From: a virus
Lineage: Duplodnaviria > Heunggongvirae > Uroviricota > Caudoviricetes
Length of the DNA stretch: 21,879 nucleotides
Virus record (IMG/VR): IMGVR_UViG_2547132415_000014
Location: 1 to 21,879 of that record
Reading direction: 5' to 3' (one strand)
The notes under the pieces are model-generated. The model did not search any database and was not told the origin of the DNA. It saw only the letters and a list, made by a program, of their open reading frames with translations. The translations under genes were made by a program, and so were the position numbers. Positions 436-21,820 of this stretch are shown here, in pieces; position 1 is the first letter of the stretch, and each line of letters starts with the position of its first letter.

Positions 436-510
436 GGGTCAGTCGTATAAAGGTCATTACGGAAGGCTGTTAACCTTCTTATCGTGGTTCGAGCCCACGC
501 TGTCCCGCCA
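436..510 (+). tRNA. tRNA-Asn (anticodon GTT), phage-encoded, divergent
   Basis: Hand-folded cloverleaf: acceptor 436-442/500-506 (6 of 7 pairs, one T:T mismatch), D-loop with GG, anticodon stem gaagg/ccttc perfect, loop ctGTTaa, T-arm cgtgg-ttcgagc-ccacg, discriminator G plus encoded CCA 508-510. Confidence 0.6.
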
Positions 511-515
511 AACAT

Positions 516-591
516 GCTGGTTTAGCTCCAATGGTAGAGCGGTCGCCTTGTAAGCGAATGGGTAGCGGTTCAAGTCCGTTAACCAGCACCA
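516..591 (+). tRNA. tRNA-Thr (anticodon TGT), phage-encoded
   Basis: Hand-folded cloverleaf: perfect 7-bp acceptor gctggtt/aaccagc, D-arm gctc-caatggta-gagc, anticodon loop ctTGTaa (one mismatch at 27:43), 5-nt variable loop, T-arm agcgg-ttcaagt-ccgtt, discriminator A plus CCA 589-591. Confidence 0.65.
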
Positions 592-5528: not shown

Positions 5529-7727
5529 ATGGCAGAAAAAAAGATGACTGACTGGCATCGCAAGGTGCTGTGCAACTTTGATAATGCCTGGTCAGCAACG
5601 CAGGATATGCGTGAGCAGATTATTGAGGCTCAACGCTTCGTCAGGGTGTCCGGCGCACAGTGGGAAGGCAGCACAAACGCTGGTTACTCATTTGATGAAG
5701 GCAGGTTCGAGCATTATCCGCGTTTTGAACTGAATAAGATTACCCGTGAATGTGATCGCATCATTGGCGAGTATCGACAGAATCGCATCAGCGTTAAATT
5801 CAGGCCGAAGGATGACAAGGCATCGGAAGCGTTAGCCGAAAAAATGAACGGCAAATTCCGCGCTGACTATCAGGAAACATCCGGTGGCGAAGCGTGTGAT
5901 AACGCATTTGATGATGCCGTAACGGGCGGATTCGGTTGTTTCCGCATGTGTGCCGATTATGAAGATGAAATGGATCCGAGTAACGAGAAACGCCGTATAA
6001 GCCTTCTCCCTGTTTACGACCCAGCGACATGCGTCTTCTTTGATCAGGACAGCAAGCAATATGACCGCTCTGATGCTATGTGGGCTATGGAAATGTTCTC
6101 CATGACGCCTAAAGCGTTCGAGGCTGAATACCCTGATTCCATCGCGGCAAGCCTTTCTCGTGATGACACTGGCACTCAATATGACTGGTCAACCCCTGAT
6201 GCTATCTATGTTGGTCGCTACTACGAAGTTCGCATAGAGAAGGTGAAGCTCGCGGCATGGCGCAACCCTGTCAGCGGAGAAACGGCAATCTATGATGAAG
6301 AGCAAATCAAAGATATTGTCGACGAGCTGACCGATGGCGCATTCGAACTGATTGGTGAGCGGACAGTGAAGAAACGCAGAGTTTATTGCGGTCTTCTGTC
6401 TGGCGCTGAATGGCTGGAAGAACCGAAGCGTATTCCGGGCGAACATATTCCTCTCATCCCGGTATATGGGCGTCGATCATTTGTTGATAATCAGGAGCGA
6501 ATCGAAGGCCACGCAGCAAAAGCGATGGATGCACAGCGTCTTGAGAACCTGATGGTTTCCATGATTGCAGATAACGCCACTCAGGCTGGCGGCGATGGCA
6601 TTCCTGTAGTTGATGTTGACATGATTCCTGGTCCTCTTGCCACTCATTGGGCGGAGCGCAACAAAAAGCGCCCGGCGTTCCTGCCGATGGTCAGTCTGAA
6701 AAACAAAAACGGAGATATTACTGCGCAGGCTCAGGTCAGCAGTTATACACCTCCGACACAAATGCCTCCTGCTCTTGCCGGGCTATTGCAGTACACCGGA
6801 ACGGCTATTCAGCAAATTACAGGTGCGTCGCAGCTTGAGAATATGCCGAGCAACGTCGCTACCGATACCGTTGATAGCATCTTTAACCGGATGGACACGC
6901 AGTCCTATATCTACATGGACAACATGGCTAAATCCATGCGCCGTGCTGGCGTCGTGTGGCTTTCTATGGCTCGTGAAGTCTATGGCAGTGATACGCCGAT
7001 GCGTATCGTTAATGAGGACGGCAGCGATGACGTGGCGCTGATGACTGGTGAAGTGGTTGACCGTCAGACAGGGCAGGTTATCGCGCTTAATGACCTTTCG
7101 CAGGGTAACTATGAAGTGACTGTCGATGTTGGCCAGTCGTTCGCTACTCGCCGTGATGCAACGGTTAAGTCGTTACTTTCCATGCTGGCACTTATCCCAC
7201 CAGGAACTCCGAAGCACGACCTTGTATCGTCGATGATTCTCGACAATATGGACGGCGAAGGGATGGACGACCTGAAAGAATACAACCGCAATCAGTTGCT
7301 TCTGTCTGGCGTTATCAAGCCGAGAACGCCTGAAGAACAGCAGATGGTTGAACAGGCGAAACAACAACAGGCCAGTCAGCCAGATCCGGCTATGGTTGCA
7401 GCGCAAGGTCAGCTTCTTGCTGGTCAGGCTGAATTGCAGAAAGCGCAGAACGAACAGGCAGCCATTCAGGTTAAAGCATTCCAGGCACAGACTGATGCTC
7501 AGGTTGCAGCGGCAAATGTTGTGAAAATCCTCGCATCTGCCGATAGCCAGCAGAAATCTGATATCCGCGAGGCTCTGAAACTGCTCGGACAGTTCCAGCA
7601 ACAGCAAGGAGACAATGCCCGTGCTGATGCAGAGCTTGTCCTGAAAAGTCAGGCACAGGGTCATGCGCAGCGCATGGACATCAACAGCATCCTGCAAAAA
7701 TCAACTCAGCAACAACCACAGCAGTAA
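5529..7727 (+). CDS. portal protein (P22 gp1-like) with Gln-rich C-terminal barrel region
   Basis: 732 aa; recalled P22-portal hallmarks (GEHIPLIPVYG, PEEQQMVEQAKQQQASQPDPAMVAAQGQLLAGQAELQKAQ, ARADAELVLK...QRMDI); starts 2 nt after the terminase stop. Confidence 0.9.
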   Translation: MAEKKMTDWHRKVLCNFDNAWSATQDMREQIIEAQRFVRVSGAQWEGSTNAGYSFDEGRFEHYPRFELNKITRECDRIIGEYRQNRISVKFRPKDDKASEALAEKMNGKFRADYQETSGGEACDNAFDDAVTGGFGCFRMCADYEDEMDPSNEKRRISLLPVYDPATCVFFDQDSKQYDRSDAMWAMEMFSMTPKAFEAEYPDSIAASLSRDDTGTQYDWSTPDAIYVGRYYEVRIEKVKLAAWRNPVSGETAIYDEEQIKDIVDELTDGAFELIGERTVKKRRVYCGLLSGAEWLEEPKRIPGEHIPLIPVYGRRSFVDNQERIEGHAAKAMDAQRLENLMVSMIADNATQAGGDGIPVVDVDMIPGPLATHWAERNKKRPAFLPMVSLKNKNGDITAQAQVSSYTPPTQMPPALAGLLQYTGTAIQQITGASQLENMPSNVATDTVDSIFNRMDTQSYIYMDNMAKSMRRAGVVWLSMAREVYGSDTPMRIVNEDGSDDVALMTGEVVDRQTGQVIALNDLSQGNYEVTVDVGQSFATRRDATVKSLLSMLALIPPGTPKHDLVSSMILDNMDGEGMDDLKEYNRNQLLLSGVIKPRTPEEQQMVEQAKQQQASQPDPAMVAAQGQLLAGQAELQKAQNEQAAIQVKAFQAQTDAQVAAANVVKILASADSQQKSDIREALKLLGQFQQQQGDNARADAELVLKSQAQGHAQRMDINSILQKSTQQQPQQ

Positions 7728-7817
7728 TTAACCCATAACGTGCAATGGCTGTCTTTATGAGGCCTGGCACCCTATTGCCTTCCGATGGGCTGAACATCGA
7801 GTAAACAGGGGTAACAA

Positions 7818-17772: not shown

Positions 17773-18102
17773 CTATTTAATTCTCTTTTCAATGGCTGCA
17801 ATTATTGCTTTTCCTGATGTTTCAGGAGATTTTGTAGCCATATAAGACGAAAAAATCATGTCGGTCATTCTTTCATAACTTACTATTTCCCACTTAGCCA
17901 ATGCATGGGACAGTTTGTAGTTGTCATCAGTTAGTGCCCTTATGGAATTTTTTAAGTGTTTATTCTCTTCTGTTAATCGCGCAATTTTTGTATCAATTTC
18001 ATGTGAGCGATCTAATTCCTTAACCTGTTTCTTGAGGGCAGCTAACCCTGCATATAGTACGCAACAGGATATCCCAAGAGCGAGTACGACTATTTCTAAC
18101 AC
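17773..18102 (-). CDS. small bitopic membrane protein: N-terminal TM helix plus coiled-coil domain (function unknown)
   Basis: GTG start at 18102 with a strong SD AAGGAGG 5 nt upstream (plus-strand cctcctt 18108-18114); product MLEIVVLALGISCCVLYAGLAAL then a heptad-like KKQVKELDRSHEIDTKIARLTEENKHLKNSIRAL; AT-rich. The 181-aa ATG-extended version looks like antisense junk. Confidence 0.6.
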   Translation of the reverse strand: MLEIVVLALGISCCVLYAGLAALKKQVKELDRSHEIDTKIARLTEENKHLKNSIRALTDDNYKLSHALAKWEIVSYERMTDMIFSSYMATKSPETSGKAIIAAIEKRIK

Positions 18103-18132
18103 ACCAACCTCCTTAGTTTTTCGCAGGATACC

Positions 18133-18498
18133 ATGAAAAAAGTTAACATTGGAAACGTACCAAAGATGCTCGTTCCGCTCTTTGAGAGCGGTACAATTGT
18201 GTTTTGTAGAGACTTTCCAGAATGGCAACGCCTGCATCAAAAACTTGGTGTGGACGTGCAGGACTCGGATGCCAACGGAGCGTCTCATACAATGAGCAGC
18301 GAGAATGGTGTTTTGCATGTGATAGGCGTGTTCAATGGCAAACTATCTACTATTGCCCATGAGTGCGCTCACATGGCATTCGATATCTGCTCAAGGGTCG
18401 GTGTTGATGTTGAACCAGGAAGAGCCAACGAGACTTACTGCTACTTAATGAGCAGGCTTGTTGAGTTCTGCGAGCGACATATCAAAAAGCCGGAGTGA
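18133..18498 (+). CDS. HExxH zincin-like small protein, possible minimal ImmA/IrrE-type metallopeptidase (function unknown)
   Basis: 121 aa; motif TIAHECAHMAF followed about 14-20 residues later by E...ANE...YLM, a pattern recalled from M78-type peptidases; SD-like agga 5 nt before the ATG. Start codon uncertain (internal Met alternatives exist). Confidence 0.55.
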   Translation: MKKVNIGNVPKMLVPLFESGTIVFCRDFPEWQRLHQKLGVDVQDSDANGASHTMSSENGVLHVIGVFNGKLSTIAHECAHMAFDICSRVGVDVEPGRANETYCYLMSRLVEFCERHIKKPE

Positions 18499-18691: not shown

Positions 18692-18727
18692 GATATACCT
18701 CAACATACACCCGTTATTGGGCGATTA

Positions 18728-18756
18728 AATATTGATCTCATTTTATAAGTAGTCAA
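18728..18756 (-). promoter_or_regulatory. candidate sigma70 promoter for the YjzC-like gene (-35 TTGACT, 17-bp spacer, -10 AATATT)
   Basis: Minus-strand TTGACT (plus 18751-18756) and AATATT (plus 18728-18733) with 17-bp spacing, about 35 nt upstream of the start codon and just downstream of the mnt terminator. Confidence 0.4.
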
Positions 18757-18783
18757 TATGGCCCAGGTAAATGCAAAAATTAA

Positions 18784-18805
18784 CCCACCGTCAGGTGGGT
18801 TTTTT
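18784..18805. terminator. bidirectional intrinsic terminator (cccacc-gtca-ggtggg) flanked by A5 upstream and T6 downstream
   Basis: Perfect 6-bp GC stem; T6 on the + strand (18800-18805) and ttaattttt on the - strand; the hairpin overlaps the mnt stop codon. Confidence 0.7.
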
Positions 18806-19042
18806 GTACAAATCCTTCAGCGTATCAAACACCATCTTCTTAACAAGTTCGGACTGCTCATCAGCGATGCGTTCCGCATCGTCTCGATAGCCTGAAATTT
18901 TGGATGGCTTTGATACAGCATCAGTCACTATCTGAACTAATTCTGAATTAAGAGAGCGGCCATTGGATTTGGCTCGCTGTTTTAGTTTTTCCTTTAATTC
19001 GTAAGGTAGCCGCAGATTAAATTGCGGGTCATCTCTTCCCAT
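18791..19042 (-). CDS. mnt: Mnt repressor (ribbon-helix-helix, Arc/Mnt family)
   Basis: 83-aa product MGRDDPQFNLRLPYELKEKLKQRAKSNGRSLNSELVQIVTDAV...DAERIADEQSELVKKMVFDTLKDLYKKPT, recalled as closely matching P22 Mnt; leftward orientation as in P22 immI. Confidence 0.9.
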   Translation of the reverse strand: MGRDDPQFNLRLPYELKEKLKQRAKSNGRSLNSELVQIVTDAVSKPSKISGYRDDAERIADEQSELVKKMVFDTLKDLYKKPT

Positions 19043-19101
19043 TCTTGATGCCTCGCTTTTGTGAGTGGATCGGCATCTTATTATCTGCTGGTTGCATCCT
19101 C

Positions 19102-19124
19102 AATAAGACCACAGTGGTCGTATT
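19102..19124. promoter_or_regulatory. candidate Mnt operator: near-perfect palindrome centred on 19113 (core GACCACAGTGGTC)
   Basis: 13-bp perfect palindrome 19107-19119 extended to about 21 bp with one mismatched pair; lies in the mnt-tailspike intergenic region, where O_mnt sits in P22. Confidence 0.55.
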
Positions 19125-19189
19125 TTTTTGATTAATAATGCATCACTGTGGCAATGATGCGGCGATTCCTTGTATCTGGAGCAAATTAA

Positions 19190-21247
19190 ATGACAGACAT
19201 TACAGCCAATGTTGTAGTGAGTATGCCTTCGCAACTCTTCACTATGGCTCGTTCTTTTAAAGCCGTAGCCAATGGCAAAATTTATATCGGTAAAATTGAC
19301 ACTGACCCAGTAAATCCTGAAAACCAGATTCAGGTTTGTGTGGAGAATGAAGACGGTTCTCACGTTCCTGTTTCGCAACCAATAATCATTAACGCTGCTG
19401 GATATCCGGTATATAACGGACAGATTGCCAAGTTCGTAACTGTGCAAGGCCATTCTATGGCTGTTTATGATGCGTATGGTGCACAGCAGTTCTATTTTCC
19501 TAATGTGCTGAAGTATGACCCGGATCAGTTAAGACAAGAGTTAGCAACAGAGGGTAATGAAATACTTGTTGACGACTCCCGTATTGCAGTTAAAAGTGTT
19601 CATGTAAATTCAAAACTTAGAACCCAGCACAATAAAAACGCAGAAATAATCACGCCAAATGATTTTATATCAAATTATGACATGATATCTGCAGCTATTA
19701 ACTCTGGAGATAGTGCCGCAGTATTTAATTCCAGGTATGCATTCACAATAACAGTTGGGGAATATGGTAATTTTAAATCTATTAGTGATGCTCTAAACTC
19801 AGCTGTTGCACTGCGTCCACTATGGAAAAATGGCATTGATTTTTGCATAATTAAAATTCTTTCCGGTTTTGTGCTCAATGAGCAAATAGAAATTTCAGCA
19901 GGATGTGACTTATCATGGATTAAAATAATATCAGAAGACTCAGTGGTTTTCTCTGATACCAGTTTGTTTACTAAAACTGTTAGGACGTATTACGAATACA
20001 AATATTTATTTTACATTTGCGATGCAGCAAAAAGTCCTGTATTTGCTATTCAGATTGAAGAAAATAGAGATGATAGCGATGTTTGTGCATTTATTGTAAC
20101 TCAAAAAGCTGAACTTAATTTCTATCCGTATTCAGGTGCTCGAAAGTTCTACGTTGGAATTCATGGTAGCTTTGGTGCAAAAATTAGTGCATATCATACC
20201 GGATGTGCTCCTGATGAGGAAAGTGTTGCTGCATATATGCCAGAAGGGTATTACGTATGTGATTTTTCTTATAGCAGATACTCTTCCCTGCAACTGGTAA
20301 ATAATGTCAAGGCATCAATGCCTGTAAGCAAGTTTGAACGGTGCACAGAGAGTACGGTTGCGTCAGTTAATTGTATTTATAATGTTAAAGCAGATTTTCA
20401 GGGGTCAAGTGCAAGCTATTGTTATATAGGATGGAATGTAAGAGATGGTTCAAATGTTAATATACGCGACCATAAAACTATACATTGCTCATATCGTGGA
20501 TTAACCTGCATTCATACAGCATATGTTGATGCAAGACGACATGACGTTGAAGAAAGTGATGCAGAAACAAGTGGTAAAGTCCTTGAACCAAATATTGAAA
20601 AAGGTTTTTATGGATGTGCACTTGGTGTGCGTATTGATGGTGCGGGTTGTGTTGATGTTGCTGGTAATGATATGCGCAATTGTGGAACAGCCGTTAATGC
20701 AGACACTGGTGCTGTTATTTCAGGAAAGGCTGTAGATATCTCAGGGGCTGAGTTGGGATTTGATTGCCATGCAGGAGCATCTGTTAATTTTCCAAGGCTA
20801 TGGGGTACAGATATAAAAAAATTAATGCACCTCCAAGATGGTGTAAGGTTTAACTCTAATATTTGTCATGTATTTGGTGCAAATCCCACAAAAGATATTA
20901 GATGGATTGATGTAGAGAGATCTGAAGCTTCTTTTATGAATGCAACGCTGGATGCAGATTCAGGATTTATTGCCGACTGTGGTAGTAGGATAACCATTGA
21001 AGGAAGTAAAGTTAAAAACCAAACAATAAGAAGTTTTTTTGGATCACATGTGGCTATAAATAATACTGTTGCTGACAGAACTTATTCAGATATAGCCGAT
21101 GTTCCGCAGTTGACTATTAGTGGAGGATCTTTTATTTCTGCTACAGGATATTCTAATTCTGACTCCAGCCCTCTTAGGTTGAGCACAACACGAAATACAC
21201 TTGGAGTTGGAGGAGCCATATTTTCAACCAATGGGGAAGTTTCATGA
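19190..21247 (+). CDS. tailspike protein: P22 gp9-type N-terminal head-binding domain fused to an unrelated beta-helix-like receptor-binding/depolymerase domain
   Basis: First ~110 aa ([34 protein letters not shown]...NVLKYDPDQ) recalled as P22 tailspike head-binding domain; the rest is unrelated, AT-rich, Cys-rich (~20 Cys) and Asn/Ser/Gly-rich. Confidence 0.9.
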
Positions 21248-21543
21248 TTAAGAGCATTGATGTCACTCCATTTCTTCACTCGCTTTGCGCTTTTGCGGCT
21301 CAGGTACTGGTTGGTATTTTTACCGGAAACTGGGCTTACGGTGCGATAGCCGGTTGTACGTTCTTCATTGCGCGTGAACACACCCAGGCAGAATATCGCT
21401 GGATAGAAAAGTTTGGGAAAGGGAAACGTGTCAACATGCCGTGGTGGGGAGGTTTTGATCCACGCGTGTGGGATGTGGGAAGTTTGTTGGATTTTTCTTT
21501 CCCAATTATCGGATGCTTATTGGTATGGATTCTTGCATCGTAG
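21244..21543 (+). CDS. small membrane protein (99 aa, two hydrophobic segments), translationally coupled to the tailspike
   Basis: ATG overlaps the tailspike stop (ATGA); hydrophobic segments [30 protein letters not shown] and [19 protein letters not shown]; occupies the slot between tailspike and att that holds conversion genes in P22. Confidence 0.5.
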
Positions 21544-21774
21544 CGAACACATAATTACCGATGAGACAAAACTGAGACACACCAAGCTTTGCACTGGATT
21601 GCAAGGCTTTGTGCTCTTCTATGCTGGGTGGCTACATGTTTGAAGATCGTTGTGCCGTATTTGTGACATACACATGACAACATCATGCATCAACTTTCTG
21701 TTTGTGCCATCAACTATTGCTTGGTGAATGCGGCTAATGCTTGCTAAAACAGATAGTTATGATTGGTGCTACAG

Positions 21775-21820
21775 ATTCGTAATGCGAAGGTCGTAGGTTC
21801 GACTCCTATTATCGGCACCA
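21775..21820 (+). other. attachment-site core: 3' 46 nt of a tRNA-Thr(CGU) gene (thrW-like), anticodon loop to CCA, without the 5' half
   Basis: attcgtaatgcgaaggtcgtaggttcgactcctattatcggcacca contains anticodon CGT in its loop, T-arm GGTTCGACTCC, acceptor 3' strand and CCA; upstream sequence cannot form the 5' half. P22-type phages integrate into thrW. Confidence 0.7.

What the first reader, a model, noticed from the sequence alone, without database searches (positions are those of the whole stretch)
19043..19189. Mnt operator-like palindrome directly upstream of the tailspike, with altered Mnt recognition residues
GACCACAGTGGTC (19107-19119, extended to about 21 bp) lies between mnt and the tailspike. 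A second partial site, gcatcaCTGTGGcaatgatgc (19140-19160), repeats the CAC-N-GTGG half-site inside a 6-bp-arm inverted repeat. The N-terminal beta-strand of this Mnt (GRDDPQFNLRLP) differs from the P22 version I recall at several positions, consistent with co-evolved specificity. With arc and ant missing, Mnt here may control a promoter reading straight into the tailspike and the coupled membrane protein.
Basis: partly seen in the sequence, partly recalled or inferred. Interest (0 to 1): 0.55.

Follow-up and report, generated by a model that had tools for sequence, protein, structure and literature searches.

The report
Variant Mnt operator beside orphan mnt
The palindrome between mnt and the tailspike gene is very likely the binding site of this prophage's own Mnt repressor, a natural variant in which protein and site changed together, but nothing in the sequence suggests it switches a tailspike promoter on and off.

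Summary
The window is the late region of a P22-like (Lederbergvirus) E. coli prophage. The palindrome AATAAGACCAC-A-GTGGTCGTATT (19102-19124) is real. It sits at the position of P22 O_mnt, abutting the -35 of the leftward mnt promoter. Among six diverged relatives it is the most conserved block of the intergenic region.

Protein and site co-vary. 58 distinct Gln6-Mnt loci carry AGACCAC-N-GTGGTC and 45 distinct His6 (P22-type) loci carry GGTCCAC-N-GTGGACC, with no crossovers.

Gln6 loci with the window-type AGACCAC operator always run straight into the tailspike gene. His6 loci always carry arc, usually followed by ant. This mnt-only layout is already known from phages L, ST64T, ST104, SE1 and ST160, with its function stated as unknown.

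The second "partial site" (19140-19160) is not conserved as a Mnt half-site. It is the window's version of a hairpin in the tailspike leader with modest covariation support.

The P22 Pant hexamers are absent, and no rightward promoter is positionally conserved. The leftward Pmnt candidate is conserved at fixed offsets in every lineage except Sf101. The orphan mnt is under purifying selection (dN/dS about 0.1). Three whole (pro)phage genomes hold a single operator each and no P22-type ant.

Verdict: a genuine Mnt operator of altered specificity, most likely an autoregulatory site. Control of tailspike expression is unsupported but not excluded.

The parts
18791..19042 (-). mnt gene (83 aa) for a Gln6-class Mnt repressor, with a ribbon-helix-helix domain and the Mnt C-terminal tetramerisation helix
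   Evidence: Pfam PF03869 (2.8e-22) and PF11423 (2.2e-18). PDB 1mnt (2.8e-34) and 1qey (3.1e-12). 76% identical to P22 Mnt. dN/dS against ST160 mnt is 0.11.
19103..19123 (.). Mnt operator: the 21-bp equivalent of P22 O_mnt, ATAAGACCAC-A-GTGGTCGTAT, centred on 19113. The perfect core is 19107-19119.
   Evidence: Inverted repeat. Positional alignment to P22 ATAGGTCCACGGTGGACCTGT. Most conserved 15-nt block among six diverged lineages, 13 of 15 invariant against 41% overall. Central base varies freely in relatives.
19098..19103 (-). Predicted Pmnt -35 hexamer TTGAGG, overlapping the left edge of the operator by 1 bp
   Evidence: PWM scan. The offset from the operator centre is the same as the P22 Pmnt -35 (TTGAGA), and it holds in all mnt-only lineages tested except Sf101.
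19075..19080 (-). Predicted Pmnt -10 hexamer TAAGAT with a 17-bp spacer. The transcription start is predicted near 19068, which puts the operator centre near -45.
   Evidence: 11.2 bits, the best candidate on either strand. The position is conserved as TAWGAT (TACGAT in VSe13). The start site is inferred, not mapped.
19051..19054 (-). mnt ribosome-binding site (GAGG on the minus strand)
   Evidence: Read directly from the sequence. The surrounding GATGCCTCAC block is conserved in the alignment.
19143..19165 (+). Conserved hairpin of the tailspike 5' leader. In the window a C-to-A change favours an alternative register.
   Evidence: RNAalifold and pair counts on 18 distinct leaders: 93% of cells paired, 3 pairs with compensatory changes, covariation score above all 500 shuffles, slid registers 24-59% paired. 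The CACTGTGG motif is not conserved.
19178..19181 (+). Tailspike ribosome-binding site GGAG
   Evidence: Invariant in the alignments.
19190..21247 (+). Tailspike gene with a P22-type head-binding domain. It is expected to be expressed by read-through of the late operon.
   Evidence: Pfam PF09008, 4.4e-66. Expression from the late operon is inferred from P22 biology as described in PMC2629481.
18782..18801 (.). Bidirectional terminator-like hairpin at the 3' end of mnt. It has a T-run on the + strand, so it would also stop un-antiterminated rightward transcription.

Best explanation
The palindrome is the cognate operator of the prophage's own Mnt repressor. It is a natural specificity variant of P22 O_mnt.

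A tetramer of the Gln6-class Mnt would bind the two half-sites, TAAGACCAC and its imperfect mirror image. The site abuts the -35 hexamer of the leftward mnt promoter, centred near -45. It is the only such site in related whole phage genomes.

The most likely role is therefore autoregulation of mnt. The bound protein may secondarily obstruct any stray rightward transcription.

The tailspike is transcribed from the late operon reading through this region, not from a Mnt-controlled promoter. The second site belongs to a conserved hairpin in the tailspike mRNA leader and is not a Mnt site.

Shown here: homology of gene and site to P22, protein-site covariation, conservation of the site and of the Pmnt hexamers, absence of Pant, arc and ant, and purifying selection on mnt.

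Inferred: binding itself, the direction of the autoregulation, and read-through expression of the tailspike.
For: - Positional homology with P22 O_mnt and Pmnt.
- The protein is a full Mnt: RHH domain plus Mnt tetramerisation helix.
- Covariation: 58 distinct Gln6 loci have AGACCAC-N-GTGGTC and 45 distinct His6 loci have GGTCCAC-N-GTGGACC, with no mixed cases.
- Lineages only 58-63% identical in Mnt (L104, L141; L110 is similarly diverged) keep the same operator.
- The central base varies freely while the arms are fixed, as expected for a dyad site.
- The operator is the best-conserved block of the intergenic region.
- A leftward promoter candidate lies at offsets identical to P22 Pmnt in every lineage except Sf101, scoring 8.4-11.3 bits against 13.1 for P22.
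- dN/dS is 0.11.
- There is one operator per genome in Gally, ST160 and an E. coli TO6 prophage, and none has a P22-type ant.
- Residue 6 and operator positions 16/17 are the known specificity pair of Mnt. PMC1184061 summarises the single-residue effect on two adjacent positions; the identities of the residue and positions are from my memory of the Stormo and Sauer papers, which are not held in the library.
Against: - No binding or transcript data exist.
- The single-sequence score of the Pmnt candidate (11.2 bits) is reached in 11.5% of shuffles, so the case rests on positional conservation.
- A repressor that regulates only itself has no obvious selective value, yet the module is conserved and selected. 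An unidentified output is therefore likely.
- A site at about -45 could activate, repress or be neutral.
- Host-genome targets were not searched.
Confidence: 0.6

Rival explanations
1. Mnt represses a rightward promoter in the intergenic region that drives the tailspike and the downstream membrane protein.
For: - The operator lies 77 nt upstream of the tailspike start.
- The mnt-operator-tailspike layout is kept in many diverged lineages, including a third specificity class in Sf101 and VSe13.
- An AT-rich stretch follows the operator in every lineage.
- PMC2629481 speculates that Mnt and Arc may influence transcription into the tailspike gene.
Against: - The consensus scan finds no + strand promoter between 18400 and 19190.
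- The Pant-equivalent position scores 3.4 bits or less, against 17.2 for P22 Pant.
- The best rightward candidates score 8.8 bits or less against a null median of 8.5, and they sit at different positions in different lineages.
- The hexamer aligned with the P22 Pant -10 drifts among near-identical relatives: TGCATC, TACATC, TTCATC, TGTATC, TATATC.
Confidence: 0.15
2. Trans-acting immunity or roadblock. The orphan Mnt is kept to act on something outside its own promoter. That could be a Mnt-controlled antirepressor promoter of a superinfecting or co-resident phage. Or the bound tetramer could act as a roadblock that tunes how much late transcription enters the tailspike gene.
For: - Purifying selection on mnt and strict conservation of the operator call for a function beyond self-regulation.
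- P22 Mnt's established role is repression of arc and ant (PMC11016777).
- PMC2629481 raises the idea of tailspike-level control.
Against: - No window-type AGACCAC-N-GTGGTC operator was found next to arc or ant in IMG/VR, neither in the pattern scan nor in 80 Arc-anchored loci.
- No second operator exists in three whole genomes.
- The operator-to-ATG distance is not conserved, ranging from 66 to about 85 nt.
- The terminator at 18782-18801 already blocks un-antiterminated rightward transcription.
Confidence: 0.15
3. Decaying remnant. mnt and its operator are leftovers of an immI region that lost arc and ant, with no present function.
For: - The phage L genome paper raises this possibility (10.1101/2020.10.05.325894).
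- A clearly decayed example exists in Symbiopectobacterium (L210): the operator is mutated and the tailspike is disrupted.
Against: - dN/dS is 0.11.
- The ORF is intact in 58 distinct sequences.
- The operator stays invariant while synonymous sites are saturated, for example between the window and L141.
- The same layout is kept in lineages down to 58% protein identity and in at least four genera.
Confidence: 0.07
4. Intrinsic terminator. The GACCA-CAG-TGGTC stem followed by GTATTTTTTT stops rightward transcription ahead of the tailspike gene.
For: The terminator scan lists it on the + strand.
Against: - The stem has only 5 pairs. Folding energy is -6.3 kcal/mol, z = -1.3.
- The T-run is present only in one sub-lineage. 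Gally has TCTCTTTGTTTG and ST160 has TTAATGACG.
Confidence: 0.03

Closest known systems
P22 Mnt repressor and its operator O_mnt (immI region)
   Same: - The protein is 76% identical, with the same RHH domain and tetramerisation helix.
- The site is a 21-bp dyad with a CCAC-N-GTGG core at the same place, abutting the Pmnt -35.
- The flank CTCAATA is conserved.
   Different: - Operator positions 4/18 and 6/16 differ: AGACC here against GGTCC in P22.
- Contact residue 6 is Gln, not His.
- There is no Pant, arc, ant or sar, so the known regulatory target is missing.
mnt-only 'ant morons' of Salmonella phages L, ST64T, ST104, SE1 and ST160
   Same: - Same layout: mnt followed directly by the tailspike gene.
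- Same Mnt N-terminus, MGRDDPQFNLRLP.
- Same operator core, TAAGACCAC-N-GTGGTC.
- The arrangement is described in PMC2629481 and in 10.1101/2020.10.05.325894.
   Different: - This is an E. coli lineage, 98.5-98.7% identical in DNA over this region to phages Gally and vB_EcoP-720R6.
- The right outer arm is GTA rather than TTA, a T-run follows the operator, and the tailspike receptor-binding part differs.
- The papers I could read do not describe the operator or its altered specificity.
Engineered Mnt residue-6 specificity variants (Youderian, Sauer and Stormo laboratories)
   Same: A change at residue 6 goes with a change at operator positions 16/17 and their mirror positions 5/6. Here His6 to Gln goes with A16 to T and T6 to A.
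   Different: - Here the change is natural and fixed in a whole lineage.
- It is accompanied by changes at position 4/18 and at residues 1, 9 and 11.
- The laboratory data are cited from memory and from the one-sentence summary in PMC1184061. The preference of a Gln6 variant was not checked.
P22 Arc repressor and O_arc
   Same: The base-contacting strand PQFNLR of this Mnt is identical to that of Arc (MPQFNLRWP). Both are RHH repressors of the same Pfam family.
   Different: The operator sequence differs (Arc: ATGATAGAAGCACTCTACTAT), as do the N-terminal arm and the oligomerisation domain. No O_arc-like sequence is present in the window.

Membership tests
Mnt repressor protein family (P22 Mnt) | N-terminal ribbon-helix-helix (Arc-like) DNA-binding domain | tested here: met
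   PF03869, E = 2.8e-22, residues 3-50. PDB 1mnt, E = 2.8e-34.
Mnt repressor protein family (P22 Mnt) | C-terminal Mnt tetramerisation helix | tested here: met
   PF11423, E = 2.2e-18, residues 53-80. PDB 1qey, E = 3.1e-12.
Mnt repressor protein family (P22 Mnt) | Base-contact residues Arg2, His6, Asn8 and Arg10 as in P22 (list from memory of Knight and Sauer) | tested here: not met
   Arg2, Asn8 and Arg10 are kept, but residue 6 is Gln. The protein is therefore a family member with a different specificity residue.
O_mnt-type operator | Dyad-symmetric site of about 17-21 bp with a CCAC-N-GTGG core, immediately upstream of mnt and abutting the Pmnt -35 | tested here: met
   The offsets match P22: the -35 starts at -10 and the -10 starts at -33 from the operator centre.
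O_mnt-type operator | Overlaps the start region of Pant, so that binding represses arc and ant | tested here: not met
   There is no Pant (3.4 bits or less, against 17.2 in P22) and no arc or ant.
O_mnt-type operator | Bound specifically by the Mnt tetramer | not testable with these tools
   Supported only indirectly, by protein-site covariation and by conservation.
P22 immI immunity region (mnt-arc-ant-sar) | Presence of arc, ant and the sar antisense RNA downstream of the operator | tested here: not met
   Only 147 nt separate mnt from the tailspike gene. tblastn finds no Arc or Ant, and Rfam finds no RNA family in 18700-19300.
mnt-only ant moron (L / ST64T / SE1 / ST160 type) | mnt transcribed divergently from, and directly adjacent to, the tailspike gene, inside the late operon between the gene 16 homologue and gene 9 | tested here: met
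   ORF map. Comparison with ST160, phage L and Gally. Described in PMC2629481.
Rho-independent terminator | Stable GC-rich stem followed by a U-run, conserved among relatives | tested here: not met
   The stem has 5 pairs and folds at -6.3 kcal/mol, z = -1.3. The U-run is absent in Gally and ST160.

The most novel reading that the evidence does not exclude
The orphan Mnt-operator pair could be a selected regulatory device with an output still unknown, not a self-regulating leftover. The bound tetramer might set the tailspike dose, either by impeding late-operon polymerases or by repressing a cryptic promoter. It might also act on host or co-resident prophage targets. The mnt-only layout could even be the ancestral state, with P22 immI arising from it by insertion of arc and ant and a His6 specificity shift.
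Probability: 0.2. Interest if true: 0.55.

Novelty: new variant of a known kind. Interest (0 to 1): 0.35.

Why it matters
Mnt and its operator are a textbook system for how a ribbon-helix-helix protein reads DNA. Residue 6 was singled out in the laboratory as the residue that sets specificity.

Here nature has made the same move. Gln6 pairs with A/T at operator positions 6/16, and His6 pairs with T/A, with no exceptions among about 100 distinct loci. Further natural classes exist (Sf101/VSe13, Phlomobacter, Acinetobacter). Together they form a ready-made series for testing recognition rules.

The finding also sharpens an open question noted in the phage L and epsilon34 genome papers: what is mnt for in phages that have no antirepressor? 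The evidence here is against simple decay. The gene is under purifying selection and its operator is the best-conserved intergenic element. About 2% of complete E. coli genomes (104 of 5,426) hold at least 80% of the queried mnt-to-tailspike region.

Tried and rejected
1. Second site as a Mnt half-site: rejected. CACTGTGG is CACTGCGG, CACTGCAG or GCCGTAGC in relatives with the identical Mnt. Some relatives have deleted the segment altogether.
2. Terminator reading of the palindrome: rejected as weak and not conserved.
3. Degenerate-Pant reading: the window aligns TCGGCA and TGCATC with the P22 TTGACA and TATATT. The conserved GGATCGGCATC block is equally well explained as the -10-proximal and start region of Pmnt on the other strand. 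Whether a Pant ever existed here cannot be decided.
4. Extra operators within the phage genome: none with up to 3 mismatches in the window, Gally, ST160 or the TO6 prophage.
5. IMG/VR scan for TAAGACCACNGTGGTC: 45 of the 80 listed loci lie next to mnt. A further handful lie next to diverged Mnt-like or other RHH genes. The rest fall inside unrelated coding sequence, as expected by chance for 15 specified bases.
6. Rfam: nothing in the intergenic region.
7. The first genome-contig scan with a nine-sequence alignment failed for lack of a conserved stretch. The five-sequence alignment returned only 5 loci.
8. The primary Mnt specificity papers (Man and Stormo 2001; Man et al. 2004; Silbaq et al. 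2002) are not held. The base preference of a Gln6 Mnt could therefore not be checked against published measurements.
9. A long-range hairpin pairing the operator's right half with the second site (-23.7 kcal/mol, z = -1.9) is specific to this sub-lineage. I do not treat it as functional.

Full report
**Context**

The window is the late region of a P22-like (Lederbergvirus) prophage of E. coli. It runs from the lysis genes through the head and ejection genes to a tailspike with a P22-type head-binding domain. Part of a tRNA-Thr gene follows at the end, consistent with a thrW attachment site.

The region 18700-19260 is 98.5-98.7% identical to Escherichia phages Gally and vB_EcoP-720R6, and 85% identical to Salmonella phages ST160 and SE1. 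At least 80% of this region is present in 104 of 5,426 complete E. coli genomes.

mnt lies at 18791-19042 on the minus strand and the tailspike gene at 19190-21247 on the plus strand. Only 147 nt separate them.

**The observation**

- The palindrome has 11-nt arms at 19102-19112 and 19114-19124, with one mismatch, and a perfect 13-bp core at 19107-19119.
- It is the only palindrome of that quality in the window, against 0.16 expected.
- A perfect 6+1+6 palindrome on its own is not unusual: 10 in the window against 5.3 expected. Chance cannot be dismissed from the window alone.
- The second inverted repeat at 19140-19160 is also there and shares 8 nt with the operator core.
- The Mnt N-terminus differs from P22 at A1G, H6Q, F9L and M11L.

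**What the palindrome is**

In P22 the mnt-arc intergenic region reads TTGACA-17-TATATT (Pant), then CTCA-ATAGGTCCACGGTGGACCTGT (O_mnt). Pmnt lies on the other strand as TTGAGA-17-TATCAT.

The window aligns position for position as CTCA-ATAAGACCACAGTGGTCGTAT. The palindrome is therefore the positional homologue of O_mnt. It differs symmetrically at positions 6/16 (T:A to A:T), at 4/18, and at the central base.

The protein is a complete Mnt, with an RHH domain and the Mnt tetramerisation helix.

**Covariation**

I collected Mnt loci from four sources:
- IMG/VR by protein;
- IMG/VR by operator pattern;
- IMG/VR anchored on Arc;
- annotated phages and one-genome-per-species contigs.

The result is clean:

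| Mnt class | Operator | Distinct mnt-plus-upstream sequences |
|---|---|---|
| Gln6 | AGACCAC-N-GTGGTC | 58 |
| His6 | GGTCCAC-N-GTGGACC | 45 |
| either class with the other class's operator | | 0 |

Another 17 sequences, 8 Gln6 and 9 His6, did not match either operator pattern. Most of the Gln6 ones I inspected differ by a single point mutation. Some His6 loci, such as L068-L071 and CUS-3, lack the operator altogether.

The central base takes all four values while the arms stay fixed, as expected for a dyad site contacted in its two halves.

Lineages only 58-63% identical in Mnt (L104, L141/L142; L110 is similarly diverged) still carry TAAGACCAC-N-GTGGTCT(T)A. His6 lineages from Pluralibacter and Pectobacterium still carry GGTCCAC.

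Further natural classes exist:

| Source | N-terminal arm | Site |
|---|---|---|
| Sf101 and VSe13 | YDEAQFHLRL | TACC-N5-GGTA, at the same place |
| Phlomobacter | Gln6 | ATATCAC-G-GTGATAT |
| Acinetobacter | Gln6 | three TAGTAC-N-GTACTA sites |

In every class with Gln at residue 6, operator position 6 is A. T at that position occurs only with His6.

Residue 6 and operator positions 16/17 are the specificity pair defined in the laboratory. PMC1184061 summarises that a single Mnt residue change alters the preferred site at two adjacent positions. The identities of that residue and those positions come from my memory of the Stormo and Sauer papers, which are not held in the library.

**Conservation and selection**

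Among six diverged Gln6 lineages the most conserved 15-nt block of the whole mnt-tailspike spacer is 19101-19119. It has 13 of 15 columns invariant, against 41% overall.

dN/dS between the window and ST160 mnt is 0.11. Against L141, synonymous sites are saturated, yet the operator is unchanged. This argues against a decaying remnant, the possibility left open in the phage L genome paper (10.1101/2020.10.05.325894).

**What it controls**

A position-weight scan recovers both P22 controls: Pant at 17.2 bits and Pmnt at 13.1 bits.

In every mnt-only lineage except Sf101, including the other third-class phage VSe13, the best or near-best candidate is leftward. It sits at the same offsets as P22 Pmnt: the -35 starts 10 nt and the -10 starts 33-34 nt from the operator centre. 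Scores are 8.4-11.3 bits. In the window this is TTGAGG (19098-19103), 17 nt, TAAGAT (19075-19080). That places the operator centre near -45.

Rightward candidates behave differently:
- They score 8.8 bits or less, against a null median of 8.5.
- They occupy different positions in different lineages.
- The position equivalent to Pant scores 3.4 bits or less.
- The hexamer aligned with the Pant -10 drifts among near-identical relatives.
- The consensus scanner finds no plus-strand promoter upstream of the tailspike.

Gln6 loci with the window-type AGACCAC operator are always followed directly by the tailspike gene. His6 loci always carry arc, usually followed by ant. The Phlomobacter Gln6 locus, which has a different operator, is followed by an arc-like gene.

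The whole genomes of Gally and ST160, and a related prophage in E. coli TO6, each contain a single operator-like site within 3 mismatches. None has a P22-type ant.

The only evident target of this Mnt is thus the site beside its own promoter. I conclude that the element is an autoregulatory operator, and that the tailspike is expressed by read-through of the late operon, as in P22 (PMC2629481). The sign of the autoregulation is unknown. In P22, as I recall from Vershon et al. 1987, Mnt stimulates Pmnt indirectly by shutting off Pant, a mechanism that cannot apply here.

**The second site**

The stretch 19140-19160 lies in a leader that is conserved upstream of tailspike genes whatever precedes them. 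P22 has it after ant, and about 1,000 E. coli genomes match from about 19143 onward.

The CACTGTGG that resembles the operator core is CACTGCGG, CACTGCAG or GCCGTAGC in relatives with the identical Mnt. The 6-bp arms depend on a single C-to-A change peculiar to the window.

The segment folds into a hairpin, CYGYRGC-loop-GCUGCRG. Over 18 distinct leaders:
- 93% of cells are paired, against 24-59% in slid registers.
- Three pairs have compensatory changes.
- The covariation score lies above all 500 shuffles, although the count of compensatory pairs is not itself significant (122 of 500).

Some relatives have lost the hairpin by a direct-repeat deletion, so it is dispensable. It matches no Rfam family.

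**Rivals**

- A trans-acting role has conceptual appeal, because a purely self-regulating repressor should not be under selection. Such a role could be immunity against ant-bearing phages or a roadblock setting the tailspike dose. No window-type AGACCAC operator was found next to an ant gene, and no second site was found.
- The terminator reading fails on stem strength and on conservation.

**Novelty**

The mnt-only arrangement is known for ST64T, ST104 and Para1 (PMC2629481) and for phage L (10.1101/2020.10.05.325894), with its function stated as unknown.

In the literature I could search, I did not find three things described:
- the altered operator;
- its strict covariation with residue 6 across about 100 distinct loci and several further natural classes;
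- the evidence that the module is maintained by selection.

This is a new variant of a well-known kind. It is of moderate interest and ordinary in mechanism, with an unresolved biological purpose.

Noticed in passing
window 19143-19165: A conserved hairpin lies in the tailspike mRNA leader about 15 nt upstream of the Shine-Dalgarno sequence, with modest compensatory changes across P22-like phages. It is present whether ant or mnt lies upstream. Its function is unknown, and some relatives have deleted it.
   Followed up: partly
window 19109-19118 with 19142-19151: Ten nt of the operator's right half are complementary to the second site. On the + strand RNA this gives a long hairpin (-23.7 kcal/mol for 19095-19192, z = -1.9). 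It is specific to this sub-lineage.
   Followed up: partly
window 436-591: Two phage-borne tRNA genes, Asn(GTT) and Thr(TGT), lie just upstream of the lysis cassette. In a related prophage (L297) they sit just downstream of the Q antiterminator gene.
   Followed up: no
window about 21767-21813: This stretch carries the 3' part of a tRNA-Thr gene (…GGTTCGACTCCTATTATCGGCACCA), which ARAGORN does not call as a full tRNA. It looks like the thrW-type attachment-site remnant marking the prophage end. The identification is from memory.
   Followed up: no
window 21244-21543: A 99-aa predicted membrane protein (phrog_1443, function unknown) has a start codon that overlaps the tailspike stop (ATGA). In phage Gally, a 95-aa hypothetical ORF in the same position lies 240 nt after the tailspike gene; its homology to this one was not checked.
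   Followed up: partly
window 17773-18498: The 181-aa minus-strand ORF overlaps the 121-aa plus-strand ORF, which looks hkcC-like on the basis of its size and position compared with the hkcC entry in a table of PMC4837284. The PHROG match covers only residues 73-181, so the real gene probably starts at an internal Met, which removes the overlap.
   Followed up: partly
L096 about 7680-7790; L147 about 1400-1500: Distant RHH genes (MSREDPQFKLRMP…, 140-153 aa) in unrelated viral contigs are preceded by three tandem GACCAC-N-GTGGTC-like palindromes. The Gln-type arm paired with this half-site is therefore much more widespread than P22-like phages.
   Followed up: partly
L207 (Sf101) and L208 (VSe13), upstream of the mnt-like gene: This is a third specificity class in the same mnt-tailspike layout. 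The N-terminal arm is YDEAQFHLRL (Asn8 replaced by His), and a TACC-N5-GGTA palindrome sits upstream of the mnt-like gene. In VSe13 the palindrome and a Pmnt candidate are at the same offsets as in the window.
   Followed up: partly
L022, L049, L053 (IMG/VR relatives): The tailspike reading frame stops after 16 codons (MTDIINRNCYLIIFEN*). A different tailspike start follows further downstream. This looks like a module replacement just inside the gene.
   Followed up: no
L206 (phage CUS-3): Two tandem mnt-like genes are present. The first is a diverged RHH gene next to its own repeats and ant. The second is a His6 P22-type Mnt with no operator of its own upstream.
   Followed up: no
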